From NCBI RefSeq assembly GCF_044704955.1, contig NC_092000.1, positions 11,098,001 through 11,162,000 on the forward strand: a stretch of 64,000 bases of DNA, read 5' to 3'. Positions 5,352 to 54,964 of this stretch are shown here, in pieces. The position numbers were made by a program, and so were the translations under genes. Positions within the stretch are counted from its first letter, which is position 1, and every line of letters starts with the position of its first letter. The DNA is from Pristiophorus japonicus. Lineage: Eukaryota. The notes under the pieces are model-generated. The model searched no databases. It was not told the origin of the DNA and worked only from the letters and a program-made list of their open reading frames with translations.

Positions 5352-7089
5352 TGTTATGTATGTAACTATGTAATACTTGCCACCAGAGGGCGAGACTGTT
5401 GGAGTCCTAATGGTCACCTGCACACATGTGCAGGGCCAGTATAAAAGGTTGGCTGCCATGTTGTTTAGGCACTCTGGAGTTGTAATAAAATAGACTAAGT
5501 TTAGCTCACAGTACTCAGCCTCGTGGAGTTCTTCAATACCAACAATTGGGGATGAGGGTGGGAACCCGCAGACTTGCTACTGGTCATGGATGCTTTTGAG
5601 AGTGAGGGGTCACCCGTCACAGCTCGCCAGATCAGGACCTGGACCAGCCAAGATCCTGTGCTATCATTAGTAAAGAGTTGCATCCTAAATGGGAACTGGT
5701 CGGCCGTTCCCGGGGAAATGCAAGATGAAATTAAGCCATTTCACCGACACAAAGAGGAAATGTACATCCAGTCGGATTGTCTCTTATGGGGTAATCGCGT
5801 GGTTTTACCAAAAAAAGGCAGAGAAACGTTTATACGCGACCTACACAGTACCCACCCAGGCATTGTCATGATGAAGGCAATTGCCAGGTCGCATGTTTGG
5901 TGGCCCGGCATTGACTCGGATTTGGAGTCATGCGTACATCAGTGCAATGCTTGATCGCAGCTGAGCAATGCACCAAGGGAGGCTCCAGTGAGTCTGTGGT
6001 CATGGCCCTCCAAATCGTGGTCCAGGATCCACATAGATTTTACCGGCCCCTTTCTAGGAAAGATGTTTTTAGTAGTAGTGGACGCTTACTCCAAATGGAT
6101 TGAATGCGTAATCATGTCATCCAGCACATCCACAGCCGCCATTGAAAGCCTCCGGGCCATGTTTTCTACCCATGGCTTGCCCGACGTCCTTGTCAGCGAC
6201 AATGGACCATGTTTCACCAGCTCGGAATTCAACGAGTTTATGACCAGCAATGGCATCAAGCATGTCAGGTCTGCTCCATTTAAGCCCGCGTCTAACGGTC
6301 AAGCAGAGCGGGTAGTCCAAACCATCAAGCAGAGCATGAAATGCGTGATGGACGGTTCCCTGCAGACCCGCTTGTCTCGCATTCTGCTCAGTTACCGGAC
6401 GCAACACCACTCGCTCGCCAGGGTTCCCCTGGTAGAATTGTTACTAAAGAGAGCCCTCAAAACCAAGCTCTCCCTAGTCCACCCCGATCTTAATGATCAC
6501 GTGGAAACCCAGCGACACCGGCAGAACATGTACCACGATCGCGCGGCTGTTTCACGTGACATTGATGTTAACGACCCCGTGATTGTCCTGAATTACGGTC
6601 ATGGTCCCAAGTCGGTTGCTGGCACTGTTTTGGCCAAGGAAGGGAATAGGTTGTTTATATTCAAACTGTTAAATGGCCAAATGTGCAGAAAGCATTTAGA
6701 TCAGACCAAATTGCAATTTACTGATAACCAGGAATGACTTGAAGAGGACATCACCATCAACGATCCACCAACACACACCCAACCAACAATCGACCTCGCT
6801 GTCAATCGCGAGGATGAACCCACCGTTCCTGACAGTCCGGTCAGACCAGTCACGGTGCAGTGCAGCAATGGTCCGGCCAACTCACACACGCCAGGGTTTG
6901 AACTTAGACGATCAACCAGGGAGCAAAGGGCTCTGGATTGCCTCAACTTGTAAATAACTTGTACCGAAGACTTTGCGGGGGGGGAAATGATGTTATGTAT
7001 GTAACTATGTAATACTTGCCACCAGAGGGCGCAATTGTTGGAGTCCTAATGGTCACCTGCACACACGTGCAGGGCCAGCATAAAAGGTT
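5352..7089 (+). mobile_element. internally deleted Gypsy LTR element (same family as 29264-39504)
   Basis: 5'LTR 5352-5544 (TG..CA), degenerate PBS joined directly to the pre-integrase region, HHCC and rve integrase (IHIDF..SDNGP..SNGQAER), PPT, 3'LTR from 6991 truncated. Confidence 0.9.
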
Positions 7090-10061: not shown

Positions 10062-10385
10062 CCCCTTATTAAAAAGGGGCACTAAAACCAACAATTTAAA
10101 AATTAACTTTTAACAATAATGGTTCAATTTAAAATTTGGTTGCCGGGGGTGATGGTGCACTCCAGTCCCTCCGGCGCCCACCTCTGGCGGAAGGCCACGA
10201 GCGTACCGGTGGACACCGCGTGCTCCATCTCCAGGGACACCCTGGCTCGGATGTAACCGCGGAAGAGAGGCAGGCAGTCGGGCTGAACGATCCCCTCGAC
10301 CGCCCGCTGCCTGGACCGGTTGATGGCCCCCTTGGCCGTGCCCAGGAGCAGTGCTACGAGGAGGCCTTCCGACCTGCCCGCTGAA
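10062..10385 (-). mobile_element. Tx1-like LINE 3' fragment
   Basis: Same ORF2 C-terminus (..RWAPEGLEC.ITPGNQIL) as 59339-62962. Confidence 0.8.
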
Positions 10386-10889
10386 GTTCTCTTTGGTCAT
10401 TATTCTAGTTTTCTCTCCCGCTTTTTCGAGATCGGGCGGAGACAGCAACAGGTGAGCAAGGGAGGGACTTCCTGCCATCCCTCGACTGGCCACTCAGCTG
10501 GTTGTCACTCCAATGTTCCCCGAGGCCGTGCTTCCCACTGCTTGCAGGTCGAGATTGGGAACTCAGTGGAAGGAGGGTCGAGGGTCCATGCGTCCGGCCA
10601 GACAGCCATCGGCAGCTCAGAGTCTTACCATGGCCAGCGAACTAACGCCACCAGCTGAGGGAGGGTGAATGATTGTCACACGGTCTCGGGGTTCATGACA
10701 AGGCAGCAGAAATGACCATGGTCCCTTTTTTCTGGGCAACCTGCTGACCCTGGTGGAGACCGTCAGGTCAGAGTGAGTGTAGCTAGGCATGTTCTACTGT
10801 TCCATTGAGCCACAAGAGATGAATGTTGACCCTTCCGCTTGTCTCTCTTTGGCGAGCTGCAAAAAAATTTAAACAGATCAGAGTTAAGG

Positions 10890-15574: not shown

Positions 15575-16152
15575 GCTGTACTTCACCGGTATAGTGCAGG
15601 GAGCAGCATGCGGCGGTCCGGCCCGGAAATTGACGCGGTCCCGGCCTGCAGGCCGGGGCCATCGGAGGGAGCAGCGTGCGGCGGTATACCACTGCAGGGA
15701 GCAGCGCGTGCTGCTGCAGGAGGGCGACGGCTGCGAAGCCAGGTCGCTGATTGCAGCGCGGGCAGGCACAGCAGGAGGGGCGAAGGAGCGGCAAGAGTCC
15801 GTCGAGGGAAGTGACCGGGGCCCAGGAGAGGTGAGAGCCCAGGGGCAGCACGGGCCCAGCCCACACTGCGATATGTGTGCGCACTAGGTCCGTGCAGCAG
15901 AGCTGGTCTCCAGTTGTCTTGGGTAATCCTTGTCACTGGACCAAGACCTAGTTCTGTCAAGCCCGTGTGGTGGCTGGTGTGCAACAGCCACCCCACGTAA
16001 AAAAATCCACGCACAGGCATCTTCCACCCTTCACGATGTTGTTCGGGATCGGAAATATTAGGTCCTTCATTGAAACACCTGTGAACTCATCACTTTTTGG
16101 GGTGGAAGCAAGTCATTCTCGATACGATGGACTGCCTACGATGATGATGATG
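15575..16152 (+). mobile_element. short non-autonomous RTE-derived element
   Basis: GC-rich leader fused to an RTE terminus (gtggaagcaagtc..ggactgcctacgatgatgatga) with no RT coding sequence. Confidence 0.6.
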
Positions 16153-16210
16153 GTGGGATGCTTGCTGCTTGTTCCTGCTGCGCTTTTCATTCCCCATGGC
16201 TTACCTTGAA

Positions 16211-16273
16211 CTAGGCTGTCGTTGGATTATAGCTTTTGACTCTGTAAACGTTTTCGTAAACGGCCTCACTCGC
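16211..16273 (-). CDS. IgSF receptor exon 9: ASEAVYENVYRVKSYNPTTA-stop
   Basis: Acceptor cttttcatttctcttttaag. The exon runs to 16205 with donor AAG|gtaagc. YENV motif in phase 0; TAG at 16213-16211. Confidence 0.72.
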   Translation of the reverse strand, partial: ASEAVYENVYRVKSYNPTTA

Positions 16274-16597
16274 CTTAAAAGAGAAATGAAAAGCATCAGT
16301 TAGTGAGACGCACGGGTCCGGAGACTAGCCGGTGCAGTTGTTGCAATCCCTTTCAGTAGCAGTCATTAGACCTGGATTTTAGATTACACAGGAGACGGAG
16401 GGCTACCCCAGTGGCTGTCAAAGATCCATTTTAATCACCTTCTCAGTGATCAGGAACAAAATTCCTTAAAATTCAATTAATGGAGAGGAACACAGAAGAT
16501 ACAATGGATTTAAGTTTCCCAGAACTTGCAGGAAGAACTTAAGAATTAGGAGCAGGAGTAGGCCATTCGGCCCCTCGAGCCTGCTCCACCATTCAAG

Positions 16598-18040
16598 GGA
16601 CTGGAGGGTAGCTAATGTAACACCACTTTTTAAAAAAGGAGGGAGAGAGAAAACGAGTAATTATAGACCGGTTAGCCTGACATCAGGAGTGGGAAAAATG
16701 TTGGAATCAATTATTAAAGATGAAATAGCAGCACATTTGGAAAGCAGTGACAGGATCGGTCCAAGTCAGCATGGATTTATGAAAGGGAAATCATGCTTGA
16801 AAAATCTTCCAGAATTTTTTGAGGATGTAACGAGTAGAGTGGACAAGGGAGAACCAGTGGATGTGGTGTATTTGGACTTTTAAAAGGCTTTTGACAAGGT
16901 CCCACACAAGAGATTGATGTGCAAAATTAAAGCACATGGTATTGGGGGTAATGTACTGACGTGGATAGAGAACTGGTTGGCAGACAGGAAGCAGAGAGTC
17001 GGGATTAACGGGTCCTTTTCAGAATGGCAGGCAGTGACTAGTGGGGTGCCGCAGGGCTCAGTGCTGGGACCCCAGCTATTTACAATATACATCAATGATT
17101 TAGATGAAGGATTTGATTGTAATATCTCCAAGTTTGCAGATGATACTAAGCTGGGTGGCGGTGTGAGCTACAAAGAGGACGCTAAGAGGCTGCAGGGTGA
17201 CTTGGATCGTTTAGGTGAGTGGGCAAACACATGGTAGATACAGTATAATGTGGATAAATGTGAGGTTATCCACTTTGGTGGCAAAAACACGAAGGCAGAA
17301 TGTTATCTGAATGGCGGCAGATTAGGAAAAGGGGAGGTGCAACAAGACCTGGGTGTCATGGTACATCAGTCATTGAAAGTTGGCATGCAGGTACAGCAGG
17401 CGGTGAAGGCGGCAAATGGTATGTTGACCTTCATAGCTAGGGGTTTTGAGTATAGGAGCAGGGAGGTCTTACTGCAGTTGTACAGAGCCTTAGTGAGGCC
17501 TCACCTGGAATATTGTGTACAGTTTTGGTCTCCTAATCTGAAGAAGGACATTCTTGCTATTGAGGGAGTGCAGCGAAGGTTCACCAGACTGATTCCCAGG
17601 ATGGCTGGACTGACATATGAGGAGAGACTGGATCGACTGGGCCTGTATTCACTGGAGTTTAGAAGGATGAGAGGGGATCTCATAGAAACATATAACATAT
17701 AAAATTCTGACGGGAAGAATGTTCCCAATGTGGGGAAGTCCAGAACCAGAGGACACAGTCTAAGGATAAGGGGTAAGCCATTTACGACTGAGATGAGGAG
17801 AAACTTCTTCACTCAGAGTTGTTAACCTGTGGAATTCTCTACCGCAGAGAGTTGTTGATGCCAGTTCAAGAGGGAGTTAGATATGGCCCTTACGGCTAAG
17901 GGGATCAAGGGGTATGGAGAGAAAGCAGGAAAGGGGTACTGAGGTGAATGATCAGCCATGATCTTATTGAATTGCGGTGCAGGCTCGAAGGGCCGAATGG
18001 CCTACTCCTGCACCTATTTTCTATATTTCTATGTTTCTAT
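16598..18040 (+). mobile_element. CR1 LINE inserted in an older minus-strand CR1 (16535-16597, 18041-18428, 23528-23640)
   Basis: [18 protein letters not shown] motifs with stops; the host CR1 resumes after the tail. Confidence 0.9.
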
Positions 18041-18428
18041 AACATCATGGCTGATCTTCTACCTCAACTCCACTTTCCCACCCGATCCCCATATCCCTTG
18101 ATTCCACTCGAGTCCAAAAATTTATCGATCTCAGCCTTGAATATTGTCAAAGACTGAGCCTCCACAGCCCTCTGGGGTAGAGAATTCCATAGATTCACCA
18201 CCCTCTGAGTGAAGAAATTTCTCCTCATCTCAGTCCTAAATGGCCGACCTCTTGTTCTGAGACTGTGACCCCCAGTTCTAGGCTCTCCAGCCCGGGGAAA
18301 GAGCCTCTCAGCATCTCCCCTGTCAATCCCCCTCAAAATCCTGTGTTTCAATGAAATCACCTCTCATTCTTCTAAACTCGAGAGTATACGCCCCTTCTAC
18401 TGAATATCTCCTCATCGGACAGCCCTCT

Positions 18429-21400
18429 TGTAATGTCTGTAGCTCCACACTGTGGATGCTTGTGTTACTGCAGCTAGTGCTGTTAATAAAGAGCAGGTTA
18501 CCTGACCAGCAGGTCAGGGGTCACCAGAACCTGCAGCCATTTTACAGGTTCTGTGATGTGTGTGCTCTCTAAGATATGACATTGGCGTCGGGAATGGGAT
18601 GTAATCAGATAATACAAAGCTGAAATTTTTGGTGGTGAATGATTCAGCCAGCTGACAGAGAGACTTTGAAAGCTTCTCTGTTTTTGGAAATAGCTACAAA
18701 TCCGAGGTAAATTACGAGCACACTTGGTGAAACTGCCAGAGTCAAAATGGCTGCCCCTAAGGGAGCTATAGGACATGTGGGGGAACGCGACTGTGAAAGT
18801 TTCAGAGCATATGTCTATCAGATAGAAATGTTTTTCACTGCAAATAATATTATCGAAATTCCCGATAATGAATACAATAACCGGGCGGTGTTGGAACGAA
18901 AAAGAGCTATATTCTTAACTGAGGCTGGGCCCGAGTTGTATGAAACGCTAATAAATTTTCTTGTACCTGACAAGCAAAAGGATACAACGCTGAAACAGAT
19001 TCTAACTAAGCTAGAACAACATTACAGCCCCGTTCCGTTAGAAATTGCTGAAAGTTATCGTTTCGGAATACGAAATCAGAAGGCCGAAGAAAATATCAGT
19101 GAGTACGTTGTAGCATTAAAAAAGCTATCTATTCACTGTAATTTCGGAGACTTTCAGAACCGAGCATTGCGAGACCACTTTGTTTGTGGGATGAAAAATG
19201 ATGCGATCAGAAGGAAGTTATTGACAACGCCTGACTTGACTTCTGACAACTTGGTCGATGAGCATGGCCGACCAATATTCCCAAGAATTTCATACTAATT
19301 TCAGTCATCAGACAACCGAGATGAACCGCCTGCAGGTTCAAAGTAAAAGGCAGTGGGGCCCCAAAGTCTCAGAAACTGGAAATGGGAACAGAGCATTGAC
19401 ATCCTGCTACCGGTGCCTGGGACAACACATTGCTCAACATAGAAACATAGAAACATAGAAACATAGGGCTCAAGTTTCGGACTCCCGCTACAGCGGCGTA
19501 CATCGGAGAGGGCCGCCTAATTTGTAGAACAAAAATTGCGCCGAATACTTACCTCCCGACTCTCAGATAGCTGTAGGCCCATTTCTAGCTTGGCGCGGCC
19601 CAGCAGGAACTGCTGGGGGCGGAGCTACAGCCCTGCGCCAAAAACAGTGCCGGCAGCTGAGCACGTGCACAGTGGCGGCTGCGCGCATGCGCAGTAGCTC
19701 CCGGCCCTCCCAGCGCATCCTGTCTCTGGGCGACGACCCTATCCCAGGCCGAAGGGACGTCGCCCCTATCGAAAATAGGTGCAGGAGTAGGCCATTCGGC
19801 CCTTCGAACCTGCACCACCATTCAATAAGATCATGACTGATCATTCACCTCAGTGCCCCTTTCCTGCTTTCTCTCCATAACCCTTGAGCCCTTTAGCCGT
19901 AAGGGCCATATCTAACTCCCTCTTGAATATATCCAATGAACTGCCCATATGTGAAGGTAGAATGCAGGAAAACTGGGCATCTTGTGAAGGCATGTCGACT
20001 GAAGGTTAACCAGCTTTCAAAGCTATGGGTAGAAATCCCCAGAGACTACATAGCATGGAAGAACAACAACAGGACGAGGAGATATTAGAGTTAAATATCA
20101 TCAGGAGCATGAGGTTAACAGACAGCGATTTGAAAAGTATCATAATCCACATAGATGTTGCAGGATTCAAGATACCCATGGAAATCAACACTGGTGCGTC
20201 CATGAGTGTAGTACCGGAGTCGCAATACCGCAACAAATTGCGGGATTTCCCATAGGAGAAAGCCAAGATAGAGCTGTGACGCTACTCGGGAGAGAACATT
20301 CTGGTGGTAGGTTGTATCACCGTACTGGTGAGATACAAGGATCAAGTTCAGAGCTTGCCTCTAATAGTAGTGGCAGGAGACAAACCTACCATACTAGGAA
20401 GAAATTGGTTGGGATCACAAACTGGATTGGAGTGAGATTTTTTGTGTCAAAACGGGATTTGTGTGAAAGGATGATGTCATCAAGAATTGTCCGAAGGTGT
20501 TCTGCAAAACAGGCAGTCCGATCCAAGGCGTCAATGTGAATGTCAGGGTACAGAAGGACGCTAGATTGGTTTATTGCAAGCCACGTTCCGTACCATATGC
20601 ACTCAAGGAGAACGTTGAGCAAGAACTCAAAAGACTAGAGACTGAGAGCATTATTTCTAAGATAGATCGATGTACCTACGTCCGATGGTAAGGTAAGATT
20701 GTGTGGTGATTATAAAGTAACCGTAAACCAGGTTCCAGAGAGTAATGTCCCCAATACATTGCCAAATGTAGAAGATTTGTTGACAACATTGACAGGTGGT
20801 CAGATCTTCTCAAAGTTGGATCTGACGAACGCCTACTTAAAGCTGGAACTAGATAAGGAGTCCAAGTCATGCTTGACTATTAATACACATCTAGGCCTAT
20901 CTCAATTTAATAGGCCACCATTTGGAGTGTCTTCCACCCCTGCCATATTCCAAGGGGTAATGAACCAGATTTTGCAAGGTATTGAAGGGGTAGTATGTTA
21001 TTTAGATGACATACTCATTTCAGCACCAAATAGGCAAATTCATAACATATTGAATGAAGTCCTCAAACGGCTAGAGAAGCACAGTGTACGAGTGGCTGCT
21101 CACAAATGTGAGTTATTTCAAACTCAGTGGAGTACTTAGGGTACAGAGTAGACAAAGATGGTTTACATCCAACCAAGGAAAAACTGGATGCAATCAGAAA
21201 TGCACCCACTCCCAAGAATATCACTGAACTTCGATTATTTTTGGGTCTTTTGAACTATTATGGGAAGTTCCTACCAAATTTGGCTAAAGTATTACATCGA
21301 CTAAATGAATTATTGATAAAACAGGTCCATTGGAAGTGGTCAAAAGAATGTGATACAGCATTCAAGGAGTGTAAAAACAACTTGGTAGAGAGCACCATGT

Positions 21401-23527
21401 TAGTTCACTATGACATATCTAAGGAGATTAAGCTAGCATGTGATGCCTCTCCATATGGAGTTGGGGCAGTAATCTCTCATGTATTAAGTAGTGGGGAGGA
21501 GAGACCAATTGCTTTTGCTTTATGCACTCTCAGTGCCAGTGAGCGTAATTATGTGCAAATCGAAAGGGAAGCTTTGGCATTAATTTTTGGGGTCAAGAAG
21601 TTCCACAAATACTTGTATGGTCGTAAGTTTACTCTCGTTACAGACCATAAGCCCCTGACAGCAATCCTCCATCCAAAGTCCCCAGTTCCAACATTAGCTG
21701 CAGCCCAAATGCAGAGATGGGCTTTGATTTTATCAGCATATATATATGATATTGAATACAGATGATCAGCGGATCACAGTAATGCTGATGCTATGTCTAG
21801 ATTGCCTTCCACATCACAAGTTACACCTGATAGGGAAGAGGTGTTCTATTTTTTATCCATCGATGAACTGCCAGTCACAGCTGAAGAGATTGGGCGAGCA
21901 ACGAAATGTGACCCAGTTATGTCAAAGGTGTATGATTATATTGCAAACGGATGGCCAAACCAGCAGGGAATAGACAAAGATATTCATCCATTCTTCATTC
22001 GTAAGAATGAATTATCAGTCGATAAAGATTGTATCATGTGGGGTGCAAGAGTGGTTATACCAAATAAATTCAGGTCCAAATTATTAGGAGACCTCCATGA
22101 CCAGCACCTGGGAATGTGCTTGACCAAGAGTTTTGCTTTGCACACAGTTACTTATGGTGGCCAGGTCTTGAAAAAGAGACAGAGTACATCGTCAGTCAAT
22201 GTACAACATGTCAATCGGTAAGCAAGCAACCACCACCAATACCATTACAGCCAGGGTGTGGCAAGGGCTACATATCGATTTTGCTGAGCTAGAAGGGCAA
22301 CAATTGTTCATTGTGATTGATAGCCATTCGAAGAGGTGTTTCCAATGTGGAAAACAACAAGTAAAACATTAGACATTTTGCGAAGATTATTTTCTTCATT
22401 TGGCCTGAAATTGTTTCGGATAATGGACCACAATTTAGTCAGAAGAATTTGCACAGTTCATGAGCAAAAATGGTGTGAAACATATCAAGGTCCCACCTTG
22501 CTTCGAATGGTGTAGCAGAGCGCACTGTCCAAATTGTAAAACGTGCCCTCATCAAACAAATGTTGGATCCAAATCCAAAGAAACGACAGTTGTCATTGGA
22601 CCACAAATTGGCTAATTTTCTAATAACGTATCGTAATACTCCTCACACAACTACTGGTAGACCAGCAGAGTTGTTTCTCAAATGACAGCCATGAACCAGA
22701 TTCTCGTTGTTAAAACTAAACTTGGCACAATCCGTAGAAGAGACACAATTAAGACAGGAAGAGAATCATGATAGAGGTAGAGTAAAAGAGAGAAGTGTGA
22801 AATTAAATCAGAAGGTGAGAGTGAAGAGCCATCACCTTAAATGGGTGAAGTGGTTACCAGGAAGAGTGGTGAAGTTATGTGGTCCTCGCACATATTTGGT
22901 CAAGATGTTTGATAATGGACAGGTTAGGTTTGTTCACATTGATCATATTTTATCTACAGACATGGAAGGTGGGACCGATTCCATTATTTCTGACTCATCA
23001 GATAGTTTTGATACACCAGTAGCAAATCCTACATCCAATGTACTGGAAACAAATCCAAGGGAAAGTCAGAATTTAAGTCTGAGTCCGAGTCAGGAAAACA
23101 AACAGTCTGAAGTTAGAGAGAGTTCAAATGGAAATCAAGGACATCCCTTGGTGGAAAACTTCCCTCAGGATCAGCCTCGAATGAGTTTAAATTCAACACC
23201 ATGTTTGGAAGGTTCTGTTCGAGAGCGAAGGTATCCTCTTCGAAACAGAAAACAAGTGGTTAAGCTTGATTTGTAAATATGGCAAAATAAGTCCATATCC
23301 TTTGTTATGTATAACCATGCAAGTTATGTATGATGATTGTTTGTTATAATAACTCTTCATTAAGGAGGGAGAAGTGCAATGTCTGTAGCTCCACACTGTG
23401 GACGCCTGTGTTACTGCAGCTAGTGCTGTTAATAAAGAGCAGGTCACCTGACCAGCAGGTCAGGGGTCACTGGAACTTGCAGCCATTTTACAAGCTATGT
23501 GATGTGTGTGCTCTCTAAGATATGACA
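18429..23527 (+). mobile_element. full-length decayed Gypsy LTR retrotransposon (family B)
   Basis: 153-bp LTRs 18429-18581 and 23375-23527 (TG..CA), PBS tggcgtcggga, PPT aaggagggagaag, near-TSD cctct/tctct. gag, protease (INTGAS), RT (YLDD), RNaseH (DAS..TDHKPL), integrase, all frameshifted. Confidence 0.93.
19437..19945 (-). mobile_element. CR1 3' end nested in Gypsy B, itself carrying a MITE fragment (~19466-19770)
   Basis: (catagaaa)n tail; gggctcaagtttc end resembles the TIR at 35213. Confidence 0.75.
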
Positions 23528-24270
23528 TCTCTCATCCCAAGAATTAATCTAGTGAACCTTTGTTGCACCCCCTTGAAGGCAAGGATATCCTTCCTTAGGT
23601 ATGGAGACCAAAACTATGCACCGTACACTAGGTGAGGTTTTATTTCCTTGTTAAAAAAATGGGTCAGATTCATCTGGAGAAATACAGATTGGGTTTCCAT
23701 GGAAACGGATGGGTGGAGCTCCTGGAGGTTTACATCACGGTATATGAATATCACTGAACACAAATCAGGCACCGCCCCACCCCCAAGCATAACATGATCC
23801 ACCTCACCCACTAATCATCATGCATACACACCCCCAAAAACTGTACACTGTTCACCGTGCCCACTGAACACCTTCCAGAACCAACCACCCCCAACCTGAA
23901 TAATGCACCCAAGCCACACCTTGTTGAATGCCATACTGCACCCATACCCACCCCCATGCCCGCCGACTCACTACACACTCTCTCCCTGCGGGTGAGCTGG
24001 TCCCTGTAATATAAAGCACCGCCTAATGGACAACTGTGGTAATGCAACTGCTGATGCAAAAAAAGCATCATGTGACTAGGTCACCTGACAAGTTCCTGTT
24101 GAGCCACCTTGTATGTGTGTGTTTATGATGTCGTAAGAATATATCACAATCCCAGCCTCTTCTCAAGCTGTCCCCAGCTGCTCGGAGTTATGAGCAACCC
24201 TGCCAAATACACACCATCAGCCCCGCTGCCCCGTGCCTGCACCCATCAGATTGTGCCCGCTGCGAGTTAC

Positions 24271-24339
24271 CTTTGCTGGGGCGCTGGGTTCCTTCGGCTC
24301 GTCTCTTTTCAGAGTGTCGTAGACCACAGCAGAGGGCAC
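24271..24339 (-). CDS. IgSF receptor exon 8 (paralog of exon 7): VPSAVVYDTLKRDEPKEPSAPAK, ITIM VVYDTL
   Basis: Acceptor cttttctcccttttaag, donor AAG|gtaact; 69 nt, phase 0-0; matches ITIM consensus (I/V/L/S)xYxx(L/V). Confidence 0.78.
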
Positions 24340-24969
24340 CTTAAAAGGGAGAAAAGCATAACCGTGAGGGAGTCATTCTGAATCGTGGGCTTGACAGAGC
24401 CACATCAGTGAGTGGGCACCCCAGGGGCACATCTGCAGCTTTCCTGAACAGGCACAGACCGAGTTGTAACCCCACATTGTCCCATCCATGCTGGACACCA
24501 CGTCCTGCTCACCTGTAGGAAGTCATGTGGGTTAATCCCATGATGCTGGAGAAAGAAAGACTTGCATTTATATAGCGCCTTTCACGACCACTGAATGTCG
24601 CAAAGCACTTCAAAGCCAATGAAGTACTTTTCAAGTGTAGTCACTGTTGTAATGTGGGAAACGCATCAGCCAATTTGCACACAGCAAGCTCCCATACACA
24701 GCAATGTGATAATGGCCCAGATAATCTGCTTTTTGTTGTGCTAATTGAGGGATAAATATTGGCCAGAACACCGGGGGTAACTCCCCTGCTCTTCTTTGAA
24801 ATAGTGCCAAGGGATCGTTTACGTCCAGCTGAGAGAGTAGACAGGGCCTCGGTTTAACGTCTCGTCCGAAAGAAGGCACCTCCGACAGTGCGGCACTCCC
24901 TCAGCACTGCACTGGGAATGTCAGCCTAGATTTTTGTGCTCAAGTCTCTGGAGTGGGACTTGAACCCAC

Positions 24970-25012
<43 letters not shown>

Positions 25013-25404
25013 GCTGACACAAGTAGTGGGGAAATAAAATGTTAAAAATCAGCTTTTGATTGCAATCAAGTGATTTGTTCTGTTCGATGAGTCTGTGTTT
25101 ACATGAGGGGATTCCAAGATCATATTTGGCTGCGAATTTCCCTCCCCTCAAACAATAATTAACATATATAGCACCTTTAACGTAACGTAAGGTTTTAAGG
25201 TGCTTTGCAGGAGGAGCATTAACAAACAAAATTTGACACCGAGCCACATAAGGAGATATTAGGACAGGTGACCAAAAGCTTGGGCATTGAGGCACGTTTT
25301 AAAGATGGTCAGAATGGAGGAGAGAGAGTTAGAGAGACGGAGAGATTTAGGGAAGAAATTCCAACGCTTAAGGTCCAGGCAGCTGAAGGCACTTCTGCCG
25401 ATGG

Positions 25405-25787
25405 AGAAATTGTGCCCGCAGCCCCGTGCCAGCGCCCATCAGGCTGTGCCTGCTGAACTGTGCCCGCTGAACCATGCCTGCACCCATCAGGCTGTGCCCG
25501 CTGGCCTGCACCCATCAGATTGTGCCTACTACCCCGTGCCCGCACCCATCAGATTGTGCCCGCAGCCCCGTGCCCATCAGATTGTGCCCGCTGCCCCATG
25601 CCCGCACCCATCAGATTGTGCCCGCAGCCCCGTGCCCACACCCATCAGATTGTGCCCGCAGCCCCGTGCCCATCAGATTGTGCCCGCTGCCCCATGCCCG
25701 CACCCATCAGATTGTGCCCGCAGCCCCGTGCCCATCAGGTTGTGCCCGCTGCCCCATGCCCGCACCCATCAGATTGTGCCCGCTGCG
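25405..25787. repeat. GC-rich minisatellite, 27/33-bp units (cccatcagattgtgcccgc[a/t]gcccc..)
   Basis: About a dozen directly visible units. Confidence 0.92.
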
Positions 25788-25793
25788 AGTTAC

Positions 25794-25871
25794 CTTTGCC
25801 GGGGCGCTGGGTTCCTTCGGCTCGTCTCTTTTCAGAGTGTCGTAGACATCAGCGGTGGGGCGTGAGGGCAC
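25794..25871 (-). CDS. IgSF receptor exon 7: VPSRPTADVYDTLKRDEPKEPSAPAK
   Basis: Acceptor cttttctcctttttaag, donor AAG|gtaact; 78 nt, phase 0-0; YxxL motif. Confidence 0.8.
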
Positions 25872-27269
25872 CTTAAAAAGGAGAAAAGCATAACCGTGAG
25901 GGAGTCATTCTGAATCGTGGGATTGATGGAGCCACATCAGTGAGTGGGCACCCCAGGGGCACATCTGCAGCTTTCCTGAACAGTACTGGACAGGTACAGA
26001 CCGAGTTGTAACCCCACATTGTCCTATCCGTACTGGACACCACGTCCTGCTCACCTGCAGGAAGCCATGTGGGTAATGGCTTAATCCCATGGTGCTGGAG
26101 AAAGAAAGACCTGCATTTATATAGCGCCTTTCACGACCACTGAATGTCTCAAAGCACTTCACAGCCAATGAAGTACTTTTCAAGTGTAGTCACTGTTGTA
26201 ATGTGGGAAACACGTCAGCCAATTTATGCACAGCAAGCTCCCACACACAGAAACGTGATATTGGCCCTGATAATCTGTTTTTTTGTTATGTTGATTGAGA
26301 GATAAATATTGGCCCCAGGACACCAGGGATAACTCCCCTGCTCTTCTTTGAAATAGTACCAAGGGATCGTTTACGTCCACCTGAGCGAGCAGACGGGGCC
26401 TCGGTTTAACATCTCATCCGAAAGGCGGCATCTCCGACAGTGCAGCACTCCCTCAGCACTGCACTGGGAGTGTCAGCCTAGATTTTTGTGCTCAAGTCCC
26501 TGGAGTGGGACTTGAACCCACAACCTTCTGACTCAGGCGAGTGTGCTGCCCACTGAGCCCCAGCTGACACAAGTAGTGGGGAAATAAAATGTTAAAAATC
26601 AGCTTTTGATTGCAATCAAGTGATTTGTTCTGCTCGATGAGTCTGTGTGCACATTAGGTGATTCCAAGATCATATCTGGCTGTGGTTTCCCCTCCCCAAA
26701 ACAATAATTAGCATTTATATAGCACCTTTAGTGTAGCGCAAGGTTTTAAGGGGCTTTGCAGGAGCATTAACAAACAAAATTTGACACTGAGCCACATAAG
26801 GAGATATTAGGACAGTTGACCAAAAGCTTGGACATTGAGGCACGTTTTAAAGAGGGTCTTAAAAGAGGCGAGAGAGGTAGAGAGGCGGAGAGGTTTAAGA
26901 AGCGAATTCCAGAGCTTGGGGCAGCTGAAGGAACGGCCTCCAATGGTGGAGCCATGAAATTTGGGAATGGGCTAGAGGCCAAAAGTGGAGGAGTGCCGAG
27001 ATCTTGGTGGTTTGTGAAGCTGGAGGAGGTTATAGAGATCGGCGAGGGGCGAGGTCATGGAGGGATTTTGAAATTGAGGTGTTGCTGGACAATGGTCAAA
27101 CAACTTGCCAATATTCACAGTCTCGGTTAGCGCACGAAAACTAACGATTTGGTTTGTCAGCCGTGGCTCAGTGGGTAGCACACTCGCCTTTGAGTCAGAA
27201 GGTTGTGGGTTCAAGTCCCACACCAGAGACTTGAGCACAAAAATCTAGGCTGACACTCCAGTGCAGTAG

Positions 27270-28772
27270 TGAAATTTACAGTGGAGAAAGAGGATAACAT
27301 GCCAGAAATCCCAAAGATACAATATTAAATCAGGGACTTAATGAAAATAAAATAATAGTAATGAAGAAAATAATGGCACGAAAGAGTGACAAATCCCCAG
27401 GGCCAGATGCTTTCCATCCCAGGGGTTTAAAGGATGGAGGTGAGCACATGCAGATGTCCCAACTATAATCTTCCAAGGTTCTTTTGATTCAGGAACCGTT
27501 CCTTGGAAAATTGCGCATGTCACTCCGCTATTTAAGAATGGGGAGAGAGGGAAACCAGGGAATTATAGACCAGTTAGCCGAACATCTGTTGTCAGGAAAT
27601 TGCTAGTGTCTATACTTAAGGAGAGGGTGACTGAACACCTTGAACATTTTCAGCTGATCAGAGAAAGTCAGCATGGATTTGTGAAAGGTAGGTCATGCCT
27701 AACAAACCTGATTAGTTTCATCATCTCCACAAAAAATTCAGTGGACAGGGGAATGTCTATGGATGTTATTTATCGGGTGGGGTGGAGTGTATATGTCGTG
27801 ATACACAAGGTATCGCAATTCTGTAGTACAGTTTTGGTTTCCATATTTATGAAAGGATATACTTGCTTTGGAGGCAGTTCAGAGAAGGTTCACTAGGTTG
27901 ATTCCGGAGATGAGAGGGTTGACTTATGAGGAAAGGTTGAGTACGTTGGGCCTCTACTCATTGGAATTCAGAGGAATGAGAGGTGGTCTTATCGAAACGT
28001 CTAAGACTATGAGGGGGCTTGACAAGGTGGATGCAGAGAGGATGTTTCCACTGATAGGGGAGAATAGAACCAGGGGACATTATCTTAGAATAAGGGGCCG
28101 CCCATTTAAAACTGAGATGAGGAGGAATTTCTTCTCTCAGAGGGTTGTAAATCTGTGGAATTTTCTGCCTCAGAGCTATGGAAGCTGGGTCATTGAATAA
28201 ATTTAAGACAGAGATAGACAGTTTCTTAACCGATAAGGGAATAAGGAGTTATGGGGAGCGGGCAGGGAAGTGGACCAGTGATAGATCTCTTAATTTCCAA
28301 TGAAATACGAACTCCGATGGTAGTTTTAACTTTTTAATACTGGCAGAGAGCAACAAACTGCTGGCTGATTGCCAGTTTCTTTGTTCTACTGAGACACATG
28401 GTCAAAATGGCTGTACTTTATACCTGGATCAATTTACAGAAAAGAACTCGCCTTCTTTGACCTTATTGGCTCAATTGAAAGTCTTTTAACGTTTTATTGG
28501 CTCGCTACCCAAGGTCCGAAAATGTCAAGTTGATTGATGAGTTAATGCAACATGCTGAGCAGCACGTAGCAGCCTTGACTTGGGGGTCTGTGAATTTTCA
28601 CAGAAAGTCTAAATGAGCCTGTTTGAATACTCTATCAATACCGATAAGGGAATAAGGAGCTATGGGGAGCGGGCAGGGAAGTGGACCAGAGTCCATGATC
28701 GTATTAAATGGTGGAGCAGGCTCGAGGGGCCATGTGGCCTACTTCTGCTCCTATTTCTTATGTTCTTATGTT
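27270..28772 (+). mobile_element. CR1 LINE pieces
   Basis: SQHGFVKGRSCLTNL, VQRRFTRLIP; 3'UTR with ttcttatg tail. Confidence 0.85.
28279..28637 (-). mobile_element. probable solo LTR
   Basis: Inverted termini TGATAGA/TCTATCA; TATAAA and AATAAA on the minus strand. Confidence 0.6.
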
Positions 28773-28833
28773 CTCATGGTCTTTACCTGTCCATCATTGC
28801 TCGTATGTTCGTAACTCTCACTTTCACACTCAC

Positions 28834-28887
28834 CATGTAAACCGGTTCCTCCTCCGGCCGCCCTGTCACTCTGCACTTCCTTACGAT
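28834..28887 (-). CDS. IgSF receptor exon 6: juxtamembrane IVRKCRVTGRPEEEPVYM
   Basis: Acceptor ctccctctttcag, donor ATG|gtgagt; 54 nt, phase 0-0. Supplies the basic stop-transfer RKCR directly after the TM. Confidence 0.85.
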
Positions 28888-31229
28888 CTGAAAGAGGGAG
28901 GCAACTAAGATTAACAGATTTGTCCGACCACCGCTTGATTGTAAATACAAAGGGCAACAGGCTGGAGATGCACGGCAGGTCGGGCAGCATTGGTGGAGCA
29001 ACAGAAGTCTGTTGGTCGAGGTTGCAGCTCTCGAGGACACCTGAGCAAGGGTCTGAGGACCTCAAAGCGCCGAAATGGCCGATTCAGTTTCTCCGTGGCT
29101 GCTGCCTGACCCGCCCGGTGTGGCCAGCCGTTGCCGGTCGAAGATTTCCAGCACCAGCGGCAATATGATTTTGCGCGGCTAACTGCACCATTGGCTGGCG
29201 GGCTTCACCGAAAAAGATGTGGAACAAGTGGAGCTCCAAAATAAAAGTCAACAAGGTACTTACTGTTATGTATGTAACTATGTAATACTTACCACCAGAG
29301 GGCGCGACTGTTGGAGTCCTAATGGTCACCTGCACACATGTGCAGGGCCAGTATAAAAGGTTGGCTGCCATGTTGTTTAGACTCTGGAGTTGTAATAAAG
29401 ATGACTAAGGTCACACTAACTTTAGCTCACAATACTCAGCCTTATGGAGTTCTTCTATACATAATAATTGGCGACGAGTAACAGAATACGAACCTTCACA
29501 CAACCATGGCTGCCATTGGACTATTAGAGAGATTCGTAGAGGGTGATGATTGGGAAGCCTTCGTCGAGCATCTCGACCAATACTTCGTGGCCAACGAGCT
29601 GGAAGAAGTCACTAATGTGGTCAAGCGCTGGGCGGTTCTTCTCACCGTCTGTGGGCCTAAAATATACGGCCTCATCAAGAATCTGCTCGCACCCCGACAA
29701 AACCAATGGAGAAGGAATATACAGAGTTGTGCATGGAGGTTCGGGACCACCTCAAGCCGAAGGAGAGTATCCTCATGGCCAGATATCGTTTTTACACGCA
29801 CCATCGCTCCGGGGGGCCAGGGCGTGGCGGATTATGTCGCCGTCCTGAGACTTCTCGCGGGACCTTTCGATTTTGGCGCTGCGTTGGGGCAAATGCTGCG
29901 AGACTTTTTCGTGCTGGGCATCAGCCACGAGGTCATTCTTCAAAAGCTGCTGGCTGCCGAAACCCTAGACCTGAACAGGGCCATCGCGATCGCCCAGGCA
30001 TGCATGGCCACGGATGATAACACCAAACAGATATCTTCTCAACATCGATGCTCACCGGCAAGTACTGTGCATGAAATGATTTCGCGAGCAGGCCGAACTG
30101 CATATGGCAGGGCCTATACGTCTGTGGCTGCAAGACCTGTGATACTCAGAGTCCGCCATCGGGAGTGAATGTGAATCCATTAACACCGTGTTGGCTCTGC
30201 GGGGGTAATCATCGGGCCCATCAATGTCGATTCAAGCACTACGTGTGCAAAGGCTGCACAACAATGGGGCACCTCCAGCGAATGTGCAAACGTGCTGCGA
30301 CACACCACGTGGCAGAGGATGATCGATCCGGCGCGGATCACGCAGCACAGGCAACTCAACCTGAGGAAGAAATGTATGGGGTGCATACCTTCACCACCAA
30401 GAGCCCTCCTATAATGCTGAAAGTCAAATTAAATGGAGTTCCAGTATCCATGGAGTTGGACACGGGTGCGAGTCAGTCAATAATGAGCCAGAAGGCTTTC
30501 GAGAAACTGTGGGGCAATAAGGCACAAAGGCCTAAACTGAGCCCGATTAATGCAAAGCTGCGTACCTACACCAAAGAGCTCATACCAGTCATTGTAAGTG
30601 AGGCAGTGAAGGTATCATATGATGGGGCTGTGCATGATCTATCATTGTGGATTGTTCCAGGCAATGGCCCAAAGCTGTTTGGCAGAAGCTGGCTGGAAAA
30701 GATTAGAATGACATCAAAGCACTATCTTCAGTGGATGACGCCTCGTGTGCTCAAGTGCTGAGCAAGTTTCCCTCGCTATTCGAACCAGGCATCGGCAACT
30801 TCACAGGCGCCAAGTTACAGATCCATCTAGGCCCTGAAGCACGGCCCATCCATCACAAGGCTCGGGCGGTTCCATACATGATGAGGGAGAGAGTCGAGAT
30901 CAAACTGGACAGACTCCAACGCGAAGGAATCATATCGCCAGTCAAGTTCAACGAGTGGGCCAGTTCAATTGTTCCGGTGTTGAAAAGCGATGGCACAGTC
31001 AGAATCTGCGGAGACTACAAGGTAATGATTAACCGAGTCTCACTACAGGACCAGTACTCGCTGCCCAAGGCAGATGACCTGTTTGCAACGTTAGCGGGGG
31101 GGGGGGGGGGGGGGGGGCGGCGGGCGGAAGTCGTTCACCAAGTTGGACCTAACCTCCGCCTACCTGACACAGGAGCTGGCTAAATCTTCGAAAAGACTGA
31201 CGTGCATCAGCACACACAAAGGACTGTTC

Positions 31230-36968: not shown

Positions 36969-39509
36969 TAGCACAGGTGCCCTTTCGCGATTCGCTCGGC
37001 TGCAGCCATTTTCCAGAGAAACATGGAGAGTTTGCTGAAATCTGTTCTGCACACCATTGTGTTTCAAGATGACATCCTGATCACTGGTCGTGACACCATC
37101 GAACATCTGTACAACCTGGAAGAGGTTCTAAGTCACCTAGACAGAGTGGGACTCAGGCTGAAACGCTCCAAGTGTGTTTTCCTGACGGCAGAATTTTTGG
37201 GGAGAAAGATTGCAGCAGACGGCATCAGGCCCATGGACTCAAAGACAGAGGCCATCAAGAATGTACCCAAACCACAGAATGTGATGGTGCTGCGTTCTTT
37301 CCTGGGACTCCTCAACTATTTCGGTAACTTTCTACCCGGGTTGAGCACGTTGTTCGAGCCTTTGCACATGTTGCTATGCAAGGGTGACAGCTGAGTTTGG
37401 GGCAAATCTCAAGACACAGCCTTTGAGAAGGTCAGGAATGTTGAAATAAGTTAATTTTACACTATGACTCATGGAAACATTTAGTGCGAGCTTGTGACGC
37501 CTCATCGTACAGGGTCAGCTGTGTGTTACAGCAAGCCAATGTATTGGGCAACCTTCAACTGGTTGCATACGTATCTAGAAGTCTGTCTAAGGCTGAGAGA
37601 GCCTATAGTATGGTCGAGAAAGAGGCATTAAGAAAATGCACCAATACCTATTTGGACTTCGGTTTGAGCTTGAAACTGACCACAAGCCGCTCATTTCGCT
37701 GTTTTCAGAGAGCAAAGATATAAATACCAATGTTTCATCCGCATCCAAAGATGGGCACTAACATCATCTGCTTATGACTGTTATCCGCCACAGACCAGGC
37801 ACTAAAAACTGTGTCAATGCTCTCAGCTGGCTACCATTACCCACCACTGGAGTTGAAATGGCGCAGCCCGCAGACTTGCTACTGGTCATGGATGCTTTTG
37901 AGAGCGAGGGGTCACCCGTCACAGCTCGCCAGATCAGGATCTGGACCAGCCAGGATCCTGCGCTATCATTAGTAAAGAGTTGCGTCCTAATTGGGAACTG
38001 GTCGGCCGTTTCCCAGGGAAATGCAAGATGAAATTAAGCCATTTCACTGACGCAAAGATGAAATGTCCATCCAGTTAAATTGTCTCTTGTGGGGTAATCG
38101 CGTGGTTTTTCTAAAAAAAGGCAGGGAAACGTTTATACGCAACCCACTCAGTACCCACCCAGGCATTGTCATTGAAGGAAATTGCCAGGTCGCATGTTTG
38201 GTGGCCCGGCATTGACTCGGACTTAGAATCATGTGTACATCAGTGCAACACTTGATCGCAACTGAGCAATGCACCAAGGGAGGCTCCACTGAGTCTGTGG
38301 TCATGGCCCTCCAAATCATGGTCCAGGATCCACATAGATTTTGCCGGCCCATTTCTAGGAAAGATGGTTTTAGTAGTAGTGGACGCTTACTCCAAATGGA
38401 TTGAATGCGTAATCTGTCATCCAGCACATCCACAGCCGCCATTGAAAGCCTCTGGGCCATGATCGCCACCCATGGCTTGCCCGAAGTCCTTGTCAGCGAC
38501 AATGGCCCGTGTTTCACCAGCTCGGAATTCAACGAGTTTCTGACCAGCAATGGCATCAAGCATGTCAGGTCTTCTTGGTTTAAGCCCGCGTCTAACGGTC
38601 AAGCAGAGTAGGCAGTCCAAACCATCAAGCAGAGCATGAAACGCGTGACGGACGGTTCCCTGCAGACCCGCTTGTCTCGCATTCTGCTCAGTTACCGGAC
38701 GTGACCCCACTCACTCACCAGGGTTCCCCCGGCAGAATTGTTAATGAAGAGAGCCCTCAAACCAGGCTCTCCCTAGTCCACCGGGATCTTAATGATCCCG
38801 TAGAAACCCAGCGACACCGGCAGAACATGTACCACGATCGCGCGGCTGTTTCATGTGACATTGATGATAACGACCCTGTGATTGTCCTGAATTACGGTCA
38901 TGGTCCCAAGTCGGTTGCTGGCACAGTTTTGGCCAAGGAAGGGAATAGGTTGTTTATAATCAAACTGTTAAATGGCCAAACGTGCAGAAAGCATTTAGAT
39001 CAGACCAAATTGTGATTTACCGACAACCAGGAATGACTTGAAGAGGACATCACCATCGGCGATCCACCAACACACACCCAACCAACAATCGACCTCGCTG
39101 TCAATCACGAGGATGAACCCACCGTTGCTGACAGTCTGGTCAGACCAGTCACGGTGCAGTGCAGCAATGGTCCGGCCAACTCACACATGCCAGGGTTTGA
39201 ACTTAGACGATCAACCAGGGAGCGGAGGGCTCCTGATTGCCTCAACTTGTAAATAACTTGTACCGAAGACTTTTGGGGGGGGGGGGGCGGGTGGAGTGAT
39301 GTTATGTATGTAACTATGTAACACTTGCCACCAGAGGGGGTGACTGTTGGAGTCCTAATGATCGCATGCACACACGTGCAGGGCCAGTATAAAAGGTTGG
39401 CTGCCATGTTGTTTAGGCACTCTGGAGTTGTAATAAAGAAGACGAAGGTCACACTAAGTTTAGCTCACAGTACTCAGCCTCGTGGAGTTCTTCTACACGT
39501 AATACTTAC

Positions 39510-39601
39510 AACATATGTGACGATGGATGTCACAATGACCAGGAAAAGCACAGCACTGACACTGATCACAATGACCATCAACTGTTGGTCGGTAATCTCA
39601 T
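39510..39601 (-). CDS. IgSF receptor exon 5: transmembrane (Y)EITDQQLMVIVISVSAVLFLVIVTSIVTYV
   Basis: Acceptor cctgtttgtgttacag, donor GTT|gtaagt; 92 nt, phase 1-0. About 24 uncharged, mostly hydrophobic residues. Not in the ORF track. Confidence 0.88.
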
Positions 39602-43833: not shown

Positions 43834-44112
43834 AGTTTATCTGCGGGTCAATCACAGTGACTATCAGCATGGACTGCCTCTTTCCCAGCTTGTTGCTCGC
43901 GATGCAGCGGTAGACACCCTGGTCGTTGGATGAGATGTTATGCACCCTGATCCTCAGGTGTCTCGTTTTTCTGACCAGCAAGACCATGCTATTTCGGTAC
44001 CAACTCATTTCGGCTGTAGGGTTGCTACTGGCCAAGCATGTCAACTCGAGCAGCTCACCCGTCGTCTTCACAATATTTCCCTCAGGTTCCACCCGAAGAT
44101 TTACAGGCCCAT
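43834..44112 (-). CDS. IgSF receptor exon 4: C2/I-set Ig domain
   Basis: Acceptor tttcttttaacag gives a YGPVNL linker. Canonical GELLELTC..SNP..SWYRN..DQGVYRCIASNKLG. The 3' boundary uses a weak T|gtttgt donor (279 nt, phase 1) and is less certain. Confidence 0.85.
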
Positions 44113-46592: not shown

Positions 46593-46892
46593 ATAAAACA
46601 TGGAGTCTTTGAGACCACGATGAGTTCATAGATTTGTGAGTGATCCGGCAAGTAATTGTTTTACCGTGGTCGTTTATCTGCGGTACAAATGAAACCGTGG
46701 ACATAGCTTTGAAGGTTCCATTGACATACATGGTGATAGATAACCCAACTCTTTCTCGTAGCGGAATCCCATCCTTCAGCCAATGCATCAGAATCTCTTT
46801 TGGATAAAATCCAATCGCACTCAAACTCAAAGTTGCAGCCTTCTTCACCTCCAACTGGGGCACATTCAAAATAGCCTGAGCAATTGGCACAG
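46593..46892 (-). CDS. IgSF receptor exon 3: C1-set-like Ig domain
   Basis: Acceptor tttattctttaag, donor T|gtaagt; 300 nt, phase 1-1. Motifs ATLSLSAIGFYPKEILMHWLKDG, NGTF, DHGKTITCRITHKSM. Confidence 0.9.
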
Positions 46893-50339: not shown

Positions 50340-50723
50340 CTTTGAATAAGAGCTGTGTAACATCAGGCACAAATTCAACTGCTTCCTTTACACTAGAACT
50401 TGGAACACTGTAATAGAATCCAGCATCTGTCACTTGCAATCCTTTGATGTGAAGCTGTGCTGTGAACGAGGGGCTCGTAACACTGAATAAAAAACGATCA
50501 CCTTGCAGAAATCTACACAAGTTCTTTTGGTGTTCGCGGTGTTTGTAATAGCACCAACGCACAATCAGCAGTTCATCCGTCTTCCGGCTGGAGTTATCCA
50601 GCTTATCGCTCAGCCCCAAAGGTGCCGCCAAGCTGAATTTTGCATACTTGCTGGTGATTATGACGTCTTCCTTCACTACGCCGTAGATTGTCTTTATGCG
50701 CTGCTCCTCGCCTCTACTTGTAT
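50340..50723 (-). CDS. IgSF receptor exon 2: V-type Ig domain lacking both canonical Cys
   Basis: Acceptor aacttgttttccag, donor G|gtgggt; 384 nt, phase 1-1, open. V-set motifs: IYGVVKEDVIIT[S]KY, VRW, DRF, AQLHIKGLQVTDAGFYY[S], TQLLFK. Confidence 0.88.
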
Positions 50724-54545: not shown

Positions 54546-54964
54546 TGATGCACGAGAGGGAAAGAGTAAAAACGAAAGTTAAAGTGTACCTGTAAAACAA
54601 AGGCCAGTGAGAGAAAAGAGGAAAACCAACAAGGAGAGACCTGGACGATTCATGTTGCTCTGCAGGCTTCTGCCCTTCTACAAAGTGACTGTGTGTAATA
54701 CTCCTTAACAGGAAGAGAGACCCATATGATGGTGCAATTTTACTGTCCTTCTTCCCTTGTGCAATAGGAAATGAATGTGTTATACAGTCAGACCATGTTC
54801 CTTCATTTCCCACCATCTGTACAGTTTTTAAATGCAATTGGAATGTGTCTCATTTCCGACAGCCACTGAAATCTGACTTTTTTTCATCCTCCCCAACGAA
54901 CTATGGTGGAACGATGGAGCAGCCAGCCACACCGCCAGTGATAGGTGGACAACGCCATCACTTA

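What the first reader, a model, noticed from the sequence alone, without database searches (positions are those of the whole stretch)
24215..26900. Recent tandem exon duplication doubles the YDTL motif and diversifies its context
Seen: a ~1.55 kb duplication, younger than the shared SINE, copied a phase 0-0 exon. Both copies keep their splice sites and are nearly identical from the Tyr onward. They differ just upstream of it by an in-frame 9-nt indel and substitutions: DVYDTL versus the canonical ITIM VVYDTL. The two Tyr would be 23 aa apart. Known: tandem pTyr motifs engage the tandem SH2 domains of SHP-1/2. Inference: a signalling module in the process of being gained; either exon can be skipped in frame.
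Basis: partly seen in the sequence, partly recalled or inferred. Interest (0 to 1): 0.75.

Follow-up and report, generated by a model that had tools for sequence, protein, structure and literature searches.

The report
Sawshark receptor's duplicated tyrosine-motif exon
In a sawshark, one small exon of an immunoglobulin-type surface receptor is duplicated and the two copies are found spliced together, adding a tyrosine site that fits the inhibitory (ITIM) pattern but would likely bind the usual inhibitory phosphatases only weakly.

Summary
The duplication is real. Two minus-strand phase 0-0 exons (A 25871-25794, B 24339-24271) lie in ~1.19-kb blocks that differ at 7.9% of sites. They belong to a V/C1/I-set receptor whose exons translate exactly to a Pristiophorus japonicus protein that is already annotated with both exons. 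An A-to-B splice joint stands in 3 of 3 putative RNA runs and not in the DNA run, so co-inclusion holds and strict mutual exclusion is refuted. Four other sharks have a single DVY(D/E)TL, so A is ancestral and B (VVYDTL, three codons shorter) is derived. 'Recent' is doubtful: K2P is 0.086, likely tens of millions of years. A tandem SHP-1/2 module is poorly supported: only B fits the ITIM pattern, both sites have Asp at pY+1 (which failed to recruit SHP-1 in PD-1 mutants), and B's changes are no more than drift would give. New here: exon A has the spacing and exon border of an ITAM's second half, with a defective first half, in all five sharks. B probably adds a second docking site of the ancestral type. 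Skipping isoforms and binding partners are untested.

The parts
54590..54653 (-). Signal-peptide exon of the host gene
   Evidence: the nine exons translate exactly to P0001
50340..50723 (-). V-like Ig exon; both canonical Cys lost, two new Cys (79, 91)
   Evidence: (V-set E 0.045, below cut-off)
46593..46892 (-). C1-set Ig exon (absent from annotated isoform X2)
   Evidence: (C1-set E 7e-10)
43834..44112 (-). I-set/C2-type Ig exon, weak donor
   Evidence: (Ig_2 E 7e-15)
39510..39601 (-). Transmembrane exon, no charged residue in the hydrophobic stretch, phase 1-0
28834..28887 (-). First tail exon, ends one codon after its Tyr (EEEPVYM)
25745..26934 (-). Duplicated block, upstream copy (A)
26099..26570 (.). 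SINE-like element inside block A
25794..25871 (-). Exon A, 78 nt, ancestral-type DVYDTL
25411..25786 (.). Minisatellite (28/34-nt units) behind the donor of exon A
24222..25392 (-). Duplicated block, downstream copy (B)
24550..25020 (.). SINE-like element inside block B
24271..24339 (-). Exon B, 69 nt, derived VVYDTL (ITIM consensus)
16205..16273 (-). Last coding exon (AVYENV, a YxN site), stop codon 6 nt before a further donor

Best explanation
A tandem duplication, likely tens of millions of years old, gave this sawshark Ig-type receptor two copies of one tail exon that are spliced in series and likely add a second docking site for the ancestral SH2 partner rather than a new SHP-1/2 switch. 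Shown: the two copies, their splice sites, the A-to-B and B-to-last joints, and a single DVY(D/E)TL in four other sharks. In those sharks the motif lies 11 residues after an upstream Tyr and 21-22 before a YxN site. After the duplication A kept the 11 spacing and B kept the 22 spacing. Inferred: B was freed from the upstream spacing, lost three codons and changed Asp to Val at pY-2, which happens to fit the ITIM pattern. Because pY+1 to +3 (D-T-L) are identical in both copies, they would likely bind the same partner. My pick is a Syk-family kinase reading a hemITAM-like site, with a Grb2-type adaptor on the YxN site (both from recalled SH2 preferences, untested). The effect would be added avidity or dosage.
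For: Copies and splice sites. Joint 24339|25794 (CT..AC on the + strand) in X5, X6 and X7 at contig depths 13.9, 343.3 and 23.9, none in DNA run X3. These contigs show no other letter at the A-specific site 25800, and the A- and B-specific letters lie 7 and 9 nt from the joint, inside one 31-mer. Joint 16273|24271 in X6 and X7. Copy-specific DNA contigs have depths 18.1 and 20, against 16.1-23.5 for four flanking contigs, so not half depth. Both annotated isoforms hold A and B. Single motif in all 7 proteins of 4 other sharks; Tyr spacing 11 in 5 of 5 species. The spacing fits the ITAM consensus, and the exon border splits the first module as in classical ITAMs (PMC4536121). Asp at pY+1 failed to recruit SHP-1 in PD-1 (PMC8631942). 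No amino-acid change from the Tyr on, where 3.2 are expected (P = 0.034).
Against: No binding partner was tested. The first module has P, C, S, S or P where an ITAM needs L/I, and Pfam's ITAM model matched 0 of 5 tails. The ITAM-type exon border is seen in the sawshark only; for the other sharks I have proteins, not genes. The three runs with joints are not on record as RNA, come from one study, and may be one animal. X5 does not show the B-to-last joint. The low divergence extends into the flanking intron (7 of 200 nt, P = 0.007, window chosen after the fact), so gene conversion could explain the sameness instead of selection. The pY+1 test was done on human SHP-1 in a PD-1 context, not on SHP-2 or shark proteins. 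The age rests on assumed rates.
Confidence: 0.6

Rival explanations
1. One reading: B is a working ITIM, and pA plus pB (or pB plus the YENV site) engage the tandem SH2 domains of SHP-1/2, giving the sawshark receptor an inhibitory arm that its orthologues lack.
For: VVYDTL fits S/I/V/LxYxxI/V/L. The spacings 23 and 22 are close to the 25 residues of PD-1 and BTLA. Both exons are co-included. Two weak sites can bind by avidity (discussion of PMC8631942). The codon changed at two positions, GAT to GTG, and only 1 of 8 single non-synonymous changes of GAT gives an ITIM-type residue.
Against: Asp at pY+1 at both sites; the G224D mutant of PD-1 failed to recruit SHP-1. A does not fit the ITIM or ITSM pattern. 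The 3-4 events in 27 nt compare with 2.4 expected. A loose ITIM match also arises elsewhere in the family (SIYANI in Heptranchias).
Confidence: 0.22
2. B is a tolerated passenger: it stays spliced in because it is in frame and harmless, and local gene conversion keeps it like A.
For: Divergence is also low in the intron next to the exon (4 of 100 and 2 of 49 nt). 1 difference in 51 nt is not significant overall (P = 0.075). The sawshark gene shows other decay-like changes: both canonical V-domain Cys are lost.
Against: Frame, Tyr, splice sites and inclusion persist after about 8.6% neutral divergence. No non-synonymous change from the Tyr on (P = 0.034).
Confidence: 0.16
3. Assembly artefact (two alleles placed in tandem), or mutually exclusive exons.
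For: No listed DNA contig spans the minisatellite between the copies, and no long reads were available.
Against: 7.9% divergence, full single-copy depth on each copy, and a direct A-to-B splice joint in three runs.
Confidence: 0.02

Closest known systems
UniRef100_UPI00398ECDAF and UPI00398E6030, 'sialic acid-binding Ig-like lectin 8' X1 and X2, Pristiophorus japonicus (P0001, P0002)
   Same: This gene: the window's exons give P0001 with 0 mismatches, and both models already include exons A and B.
   Different: The record gives only an automatic-looking name; it says nothing on the duplication, its direction or its function.
Shark orthologues XP_067877213.1 (Heterodontus), XP_067829186.1 (Heptranchias), XP_078387599.1 (Cetorhinus), XP_038640894.1 (Scyliorhinus)
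   Same: Same V/C1/I-set, TM and tail layout, 42-50% identity, invariant EEPxY, ADVYxTL and YxN.
   Different: One DVY(D/E)TL only; canonical V-domain Cys pair kept.
Xenopus laevis FcR-gamma with an extra exon (PMC4536121, passages read)
   Same: A lineage-specific extra tail exon creates an additional tyrosine motif; the exon border lies inside the first module.
   Different: There the result is a second ITAM in a charged-TM adaptor. Here the host is a ligand-binding-type receptor, the first module is defective, and the copy drifted to an ITIM pattern.
Dual-motif inhibitory receptors PD-1, BTLA and PECAM-1 (PMC8631942 and PMC5664058, passages read)
   Same: Two tyrosine motifs about 23-25 residues apart; in PECAM-1, skipping exon 14 removes SHP-2 binding.
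   Different: Their second motif is an ITIM or ITSM, and strong SHP-1 sites have a medium non-polar pY+1. Here A fits neither pattern and pY+1 is Asp.
Three-Ig ectodomains of MAG, CD22, nectins and CADM/Necl
   Same: Nearest folds and feature neighbours.
   Different: 13-22% identity, TM-score by query at most 0.25 on a low-confidence model (mean pLDDT 54); no family assignment follows.

Membership tests
Tandem duplicated exon pair | Two homologous exons in cis with intact splice sites | tested here: met
Tandem duplicated exon pair | Both copies present in one spliced product | tested here: met
   A-to-B joint in 3 of 3 putative RNA runs, 0 of 1 DNA run; the runs are not on record as RNA
Mutually exclusive exons | The copies are never joined to each other | tested here: not met
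ITIM (exon B) | Consensus S/I/V/L-x-Y-x-x-I/V/L | tested here: met
   VVYDTL
ITIM (exon B) | Medium non-polar pY+1, as in SHP-1 docking sites | tested here: not met
   Asp at pY+1; PMC8631942
ITIM (exon B) | Phosphorylation-dependent SHP-1/2 or SHIP recruitment and inhibition | not testable with these tools
   Needs pull-down and cell assay
Dual ITIM/ITSM SHP-1/2 module (A+B) | Both motifs fit ITIM or ITSM | tested here: not met
   A (DVYDTL) fits neither
Dual ITIM/ITSM SHP-1/2 module (A+B) | Tyr spacing near 25 residues | tested here: met
   23 against 25 in PD-1 and BTLA
Classical ITAM (first tail exon + A) | D/E/N-x-x-Y, seven-residue spacer, second YxxL/I | tested here: met
   5 of 5 species; consensus from PMC4536121
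Classical ITAM (first tail exon + A) | Exon border splits the first module | tested here: met
   Sawshark only: phase-0 intron one codon after the Tyr
Classical ITAM (first tail exon + A) | L/I at +3 of the first Tyr | tested here: not met
   P, C, S, S, P; no Pfam ITAM match in 5 of 5 tails
Siglec | Essential Arg on the V-set F strand (recalled feature) | tested here: inconclusive
   F strands of 5 species show no conserved Arg; only Heptranchias has one, directly after the F-strand Cys
Siglec | V-set lacks the canonical B-F disulphide and has Siglec-type Cys (recalled feature) | tested here: not met
   4 of 4 orthologues have Cys in the canonical B- and F-strand positions
Siglec | Sialic acid binding | not testable with these tools
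   Needs a glycan array

The most novel reading that the evidence does not exclude
An exon encoding the second half of an ITAM-type activating motif was duplicated, and the copy was turned into a working ITIM by a three-codon deletion and one Asp-to-Val change. One shark receptor thus carries activating and inhibitory arms born from the same exon, and splicing (A only, B only, or both) sets the sign of the signal. Skipping A would also shorten the ITAM-like Tyr spacing from 11 to 8.
Probability: 0.15. Interest if true: 0.72.

Novelty: new variant of a known kind. Interest (0 to 1): 0.38.

Why it matters
It is a clean, polarised case of a receptor tail gaining a tyrosine motif by exon duplication, with the ancestral copy kept beside the derived one. 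That makes 'does an ITIM consensus gained by one substitution work?' testable with a few peptides. If B recruits SHP-1/2, it would show a short route from an ITAM-like half-site to an ITIM. If not, it is a caution against calling inhibitory function from the six-letter pattern. The exon structure itself is already in the public annotation, and gaining a motif through an extra exon has precedent.

Tried and rejected
No whole genome is held for this window, so synteny and paralogues elsewhere were not examined. A profile search with five sharks scored 7996 candidates and returned the same 6 family proteins plus 2 weak unrelated hits. Among the best 150 representatives only P0002, P0004 and P0005 look like family members, judged by identity and length. 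No ray, chimaera, dogfish or angel-shark protein turned up, which is weak evidence of absence. No RNA holder was listed as such. Skipping joints and the first-tail-exon-to-A joint are not among the 15 rows shown, with 2535 not shown, so this says nothing on skipping. Contig depth ratios (343 vs 411 in X6; 23.9 vs 16.6 in X7) point in opposite directions and were not used. Two DNA contigs mix A- and B-type letters; identical runs of 37-72 nt between the copies can make such chimeras, so I did not read them as gene conversion. The structure model was too poor in the V domain to test a Cys79-Cys91 bond, and the fold search did not place the family. Positive selection on B: no excess of changes. 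Paper searches: no hits. One search gave 17 listings on the species and two, none on this gene by title or abstract start; one search gave one listing, not read. Most subscription papers are not in the library and supplements were not read. Earlier scan notes: none. No complex prediction was run, since phosphotyrosine cannot be given.

Full report
Observation. The window holds two homologous blocks, 25745-26934 and 24222-25392, 88.8% alike over 1202 columns. Each carries a minus-strand phase 0-0 exon with AG and GT intact: A at 25871-25794 (78 nt, with DVYDTL) and B at 24339-24271 (69 nt, with VVYDTL). From the Tyr codon on they differ at 1 of 51 nt, synonymously. Upstream they differ by a 9-nt indel and three substitutions. 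A minisatellite of 28/34-nt units behind A's donor accounts for most of the gap between the 1.19-kb block and the 1.55-kb period. The SINE-like element is 90.9% alike between the copies and 86% to the next full-length copy in the window, so it predates the event.

Host gene. Nine exons from 54653 to 16211 translate with 0 mismatches to P0001, a 460-residue protein that UniRef labels 'sialic acid-binding Ig-like lectin 8 isoform X1' of Pristiophorus japonicus. Its layout is signal peptide, V-like, C1-set, I-set, an uncharged TM and an 85-residue tail. Isoform X2 lacks the C1 exon, and both isoforms contain A and B, so the exon structure is already in the public annotation. The Siglec name is not supported: the orthologues have the canonical V-set Cys pair and no conserved F-strand Arg (the Siglec features are recalled). 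Fold and feature searches place it loosely among three-Ig ectodomains (MAG, CD22, nectin, CADM) without assigning a family (low-confidence model).

Are both copies real and used? Four runs were laid on 16100-29000. The joint 24339|25794, which removes exactly the A-B intron, stands in X5, X6 and X7 and not in DNA run X3. The joined contigs show no other letter at the A-specific site 25800, and the diagnostic letters lie 7 and 9 nt from the joint, so a graph chimera cannot explain it. The B-to-last-exon joint stands in X6 and X7 but not X5. Copy-specific DNA contigs have depths 18.1 and 20, against 16.1-23.5 in four flanking contigs, which argues against two alleles placed in tandem. Limits: X5-X7 are not on record as RNA (I infer it from joints at splice sites), they come from one study, and X3 may be the source of the assembly. 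Only 15 joints were shown and 2535 were not, so skipping is neither seen nor excluded.

Direction and age. All 7 proteins from Heterodontus, Heptranchias, Cetorhinus and Scyliorhinus have one ADVY(D/E)TL in a segment that aligns with A at full length upstream of the Tyr. This rests on annotated proteins, not on those genes' DNA. Intronic divergence is 88 of 1090 sites, K2P 0.086. At the epaulette-shark rate of 7e-10 per generation (PMC10587355, passages read) that is about 6e7 generations, probably an overestimate. At assumed rates of 0.5-2e-9 per year it is 86-22 million years. The duplication is lineage-specific but not recent.

What the ancestral tail is. In 5 of 5 species an upstream Tyr (EEPxY) lies 11 residues before DVY(D/E)TL, which lies 21-22 residues before a YxN site. 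The 11 spacing with an acidic residue at -3 matches the ITAM consensus D/E/NxxYxxL/I-x7-YxxL/I. In the sawshark the intron falls one codon after the first Tyr, and PMC4536121 states that the exon boundary of a classical ITAM always splits the first module (passages read). However, the first module has P, C or S instead of L/I in all five, and Pfam's ITAM model matches none of the five tails. It is ITAM-like in spacing and gene structure but fails membership. With both exons in, the spacings are 11, 23 and 22: A keeps the upstream relation and B the downstream one. B changed only in the stretch whose length is fixed in the orthologues, as release from constraint would predict. Skipping B restores the ancestral 11 and 22; skipping A gives 8 and 22.

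Is B a working ITIM? It fits the consensus, and 23 residues is near the 25 of PD-1 and BTLA (PMC8631942, passages read). Against this, A fits neither ITIM nor ITSM, and both sites have Asp at pY+1. In the same paper a polar or charged pY+1, including G224D, failed to recruit SHP-1 to PD-1. That test did not cover SHP-2 or shark proteins. The 3-4 events in the 27 nt before B's Tyr compare with 2.4 expected from the intron (P = 0.2-0.4), so nothing points to positive selection, though Val is only 1 of 8 single non-synonymous outcomes of the Asp codon. No amino-acid change from the Tyr on (P = 0.034) suggests constraint. The adjoining intron is also conserved, so gene conversion is an alternative.

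Mechanism and verdict. Shown: duplication, co-inclusion, polarity and spacings. Inferred: two pY-D-T-L sites that bind the same partner and add avidity, probably a Syk-family kinase on a hemITAM-like site with a Grb2-type adaptor on YENV (recalled preferences, untested), 0.6. A working SHP module, 0.22. Passenger, 0.16. Artefact, 0.02. Gaining a tyrosine motif through an extra tail exon has precedent in Xenopus FcR-gamma, and splice control of SHP-2 binding in PECAM-1 (PMC5664058, passages read). I found no paper on this gene in the searches (listings only; the library lacks most subscription journals; supplements not read). New variant of a known kind, interest 0.38.

Noticed in passing
window 50340-50723 (-): The sawshark V domain has Ser at both canonical Cys positions, which 4 of 4 orthologues keep, and has two new Cys (79, 91) on the C and C' strands that could form a replacement bond. 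The model was too poor to test this.
   Followed up: partly
window 46593-46892 (-): The C1-set domain lacks its first Cys in 4 of 5 sharks (kept in Heptranchias), and annotated isoform X2 skips this exon in frame.
   Followed up: partly
window 16205-16273 (-): The last coding exon is 69 nt like B and ends in a donor 6 nt after its stop codon. With flanks it aligns to A and B better than 1000 and 999 of 1000 shuffles, while the first tail exon does not (321 of 1000 reach its score). It may be a much older duplicate, but splice-site consensus inflates the score.
   Followed up: partly
window 59338-62760 (+): Three head-to-tail copies of a ~1.29-kb unit, 88-95% alike over 850 nt, each with a long ORF that resembles the end of a LINE ORF2 (by eye); related copies lie at 10113-10422 and 53104-53945.
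   Followed up: partly
window 25411-25786 and 24222-24270: The minisatellite expanded only behind A's donor; a single seed of it follows B's donor and marks the end of the duplicated block.
   Followed up: partly
window 18711-23400 (+), also 5556-6737, 29482-31183, 36972-39015: Broken LTR-retrotransposon-like remnants (gag, RT, RNase H and integrase-like ORFs by eye); the first fills much of the 8-kb intron between B and the last coding exon.
   Followed up: no
window 43834 (-): The I-set exon uses a weak donor (ACT|gtttgt); read-through would meet a stop 11 codons on and give a secreted three-Ig form.
   Followed up: no
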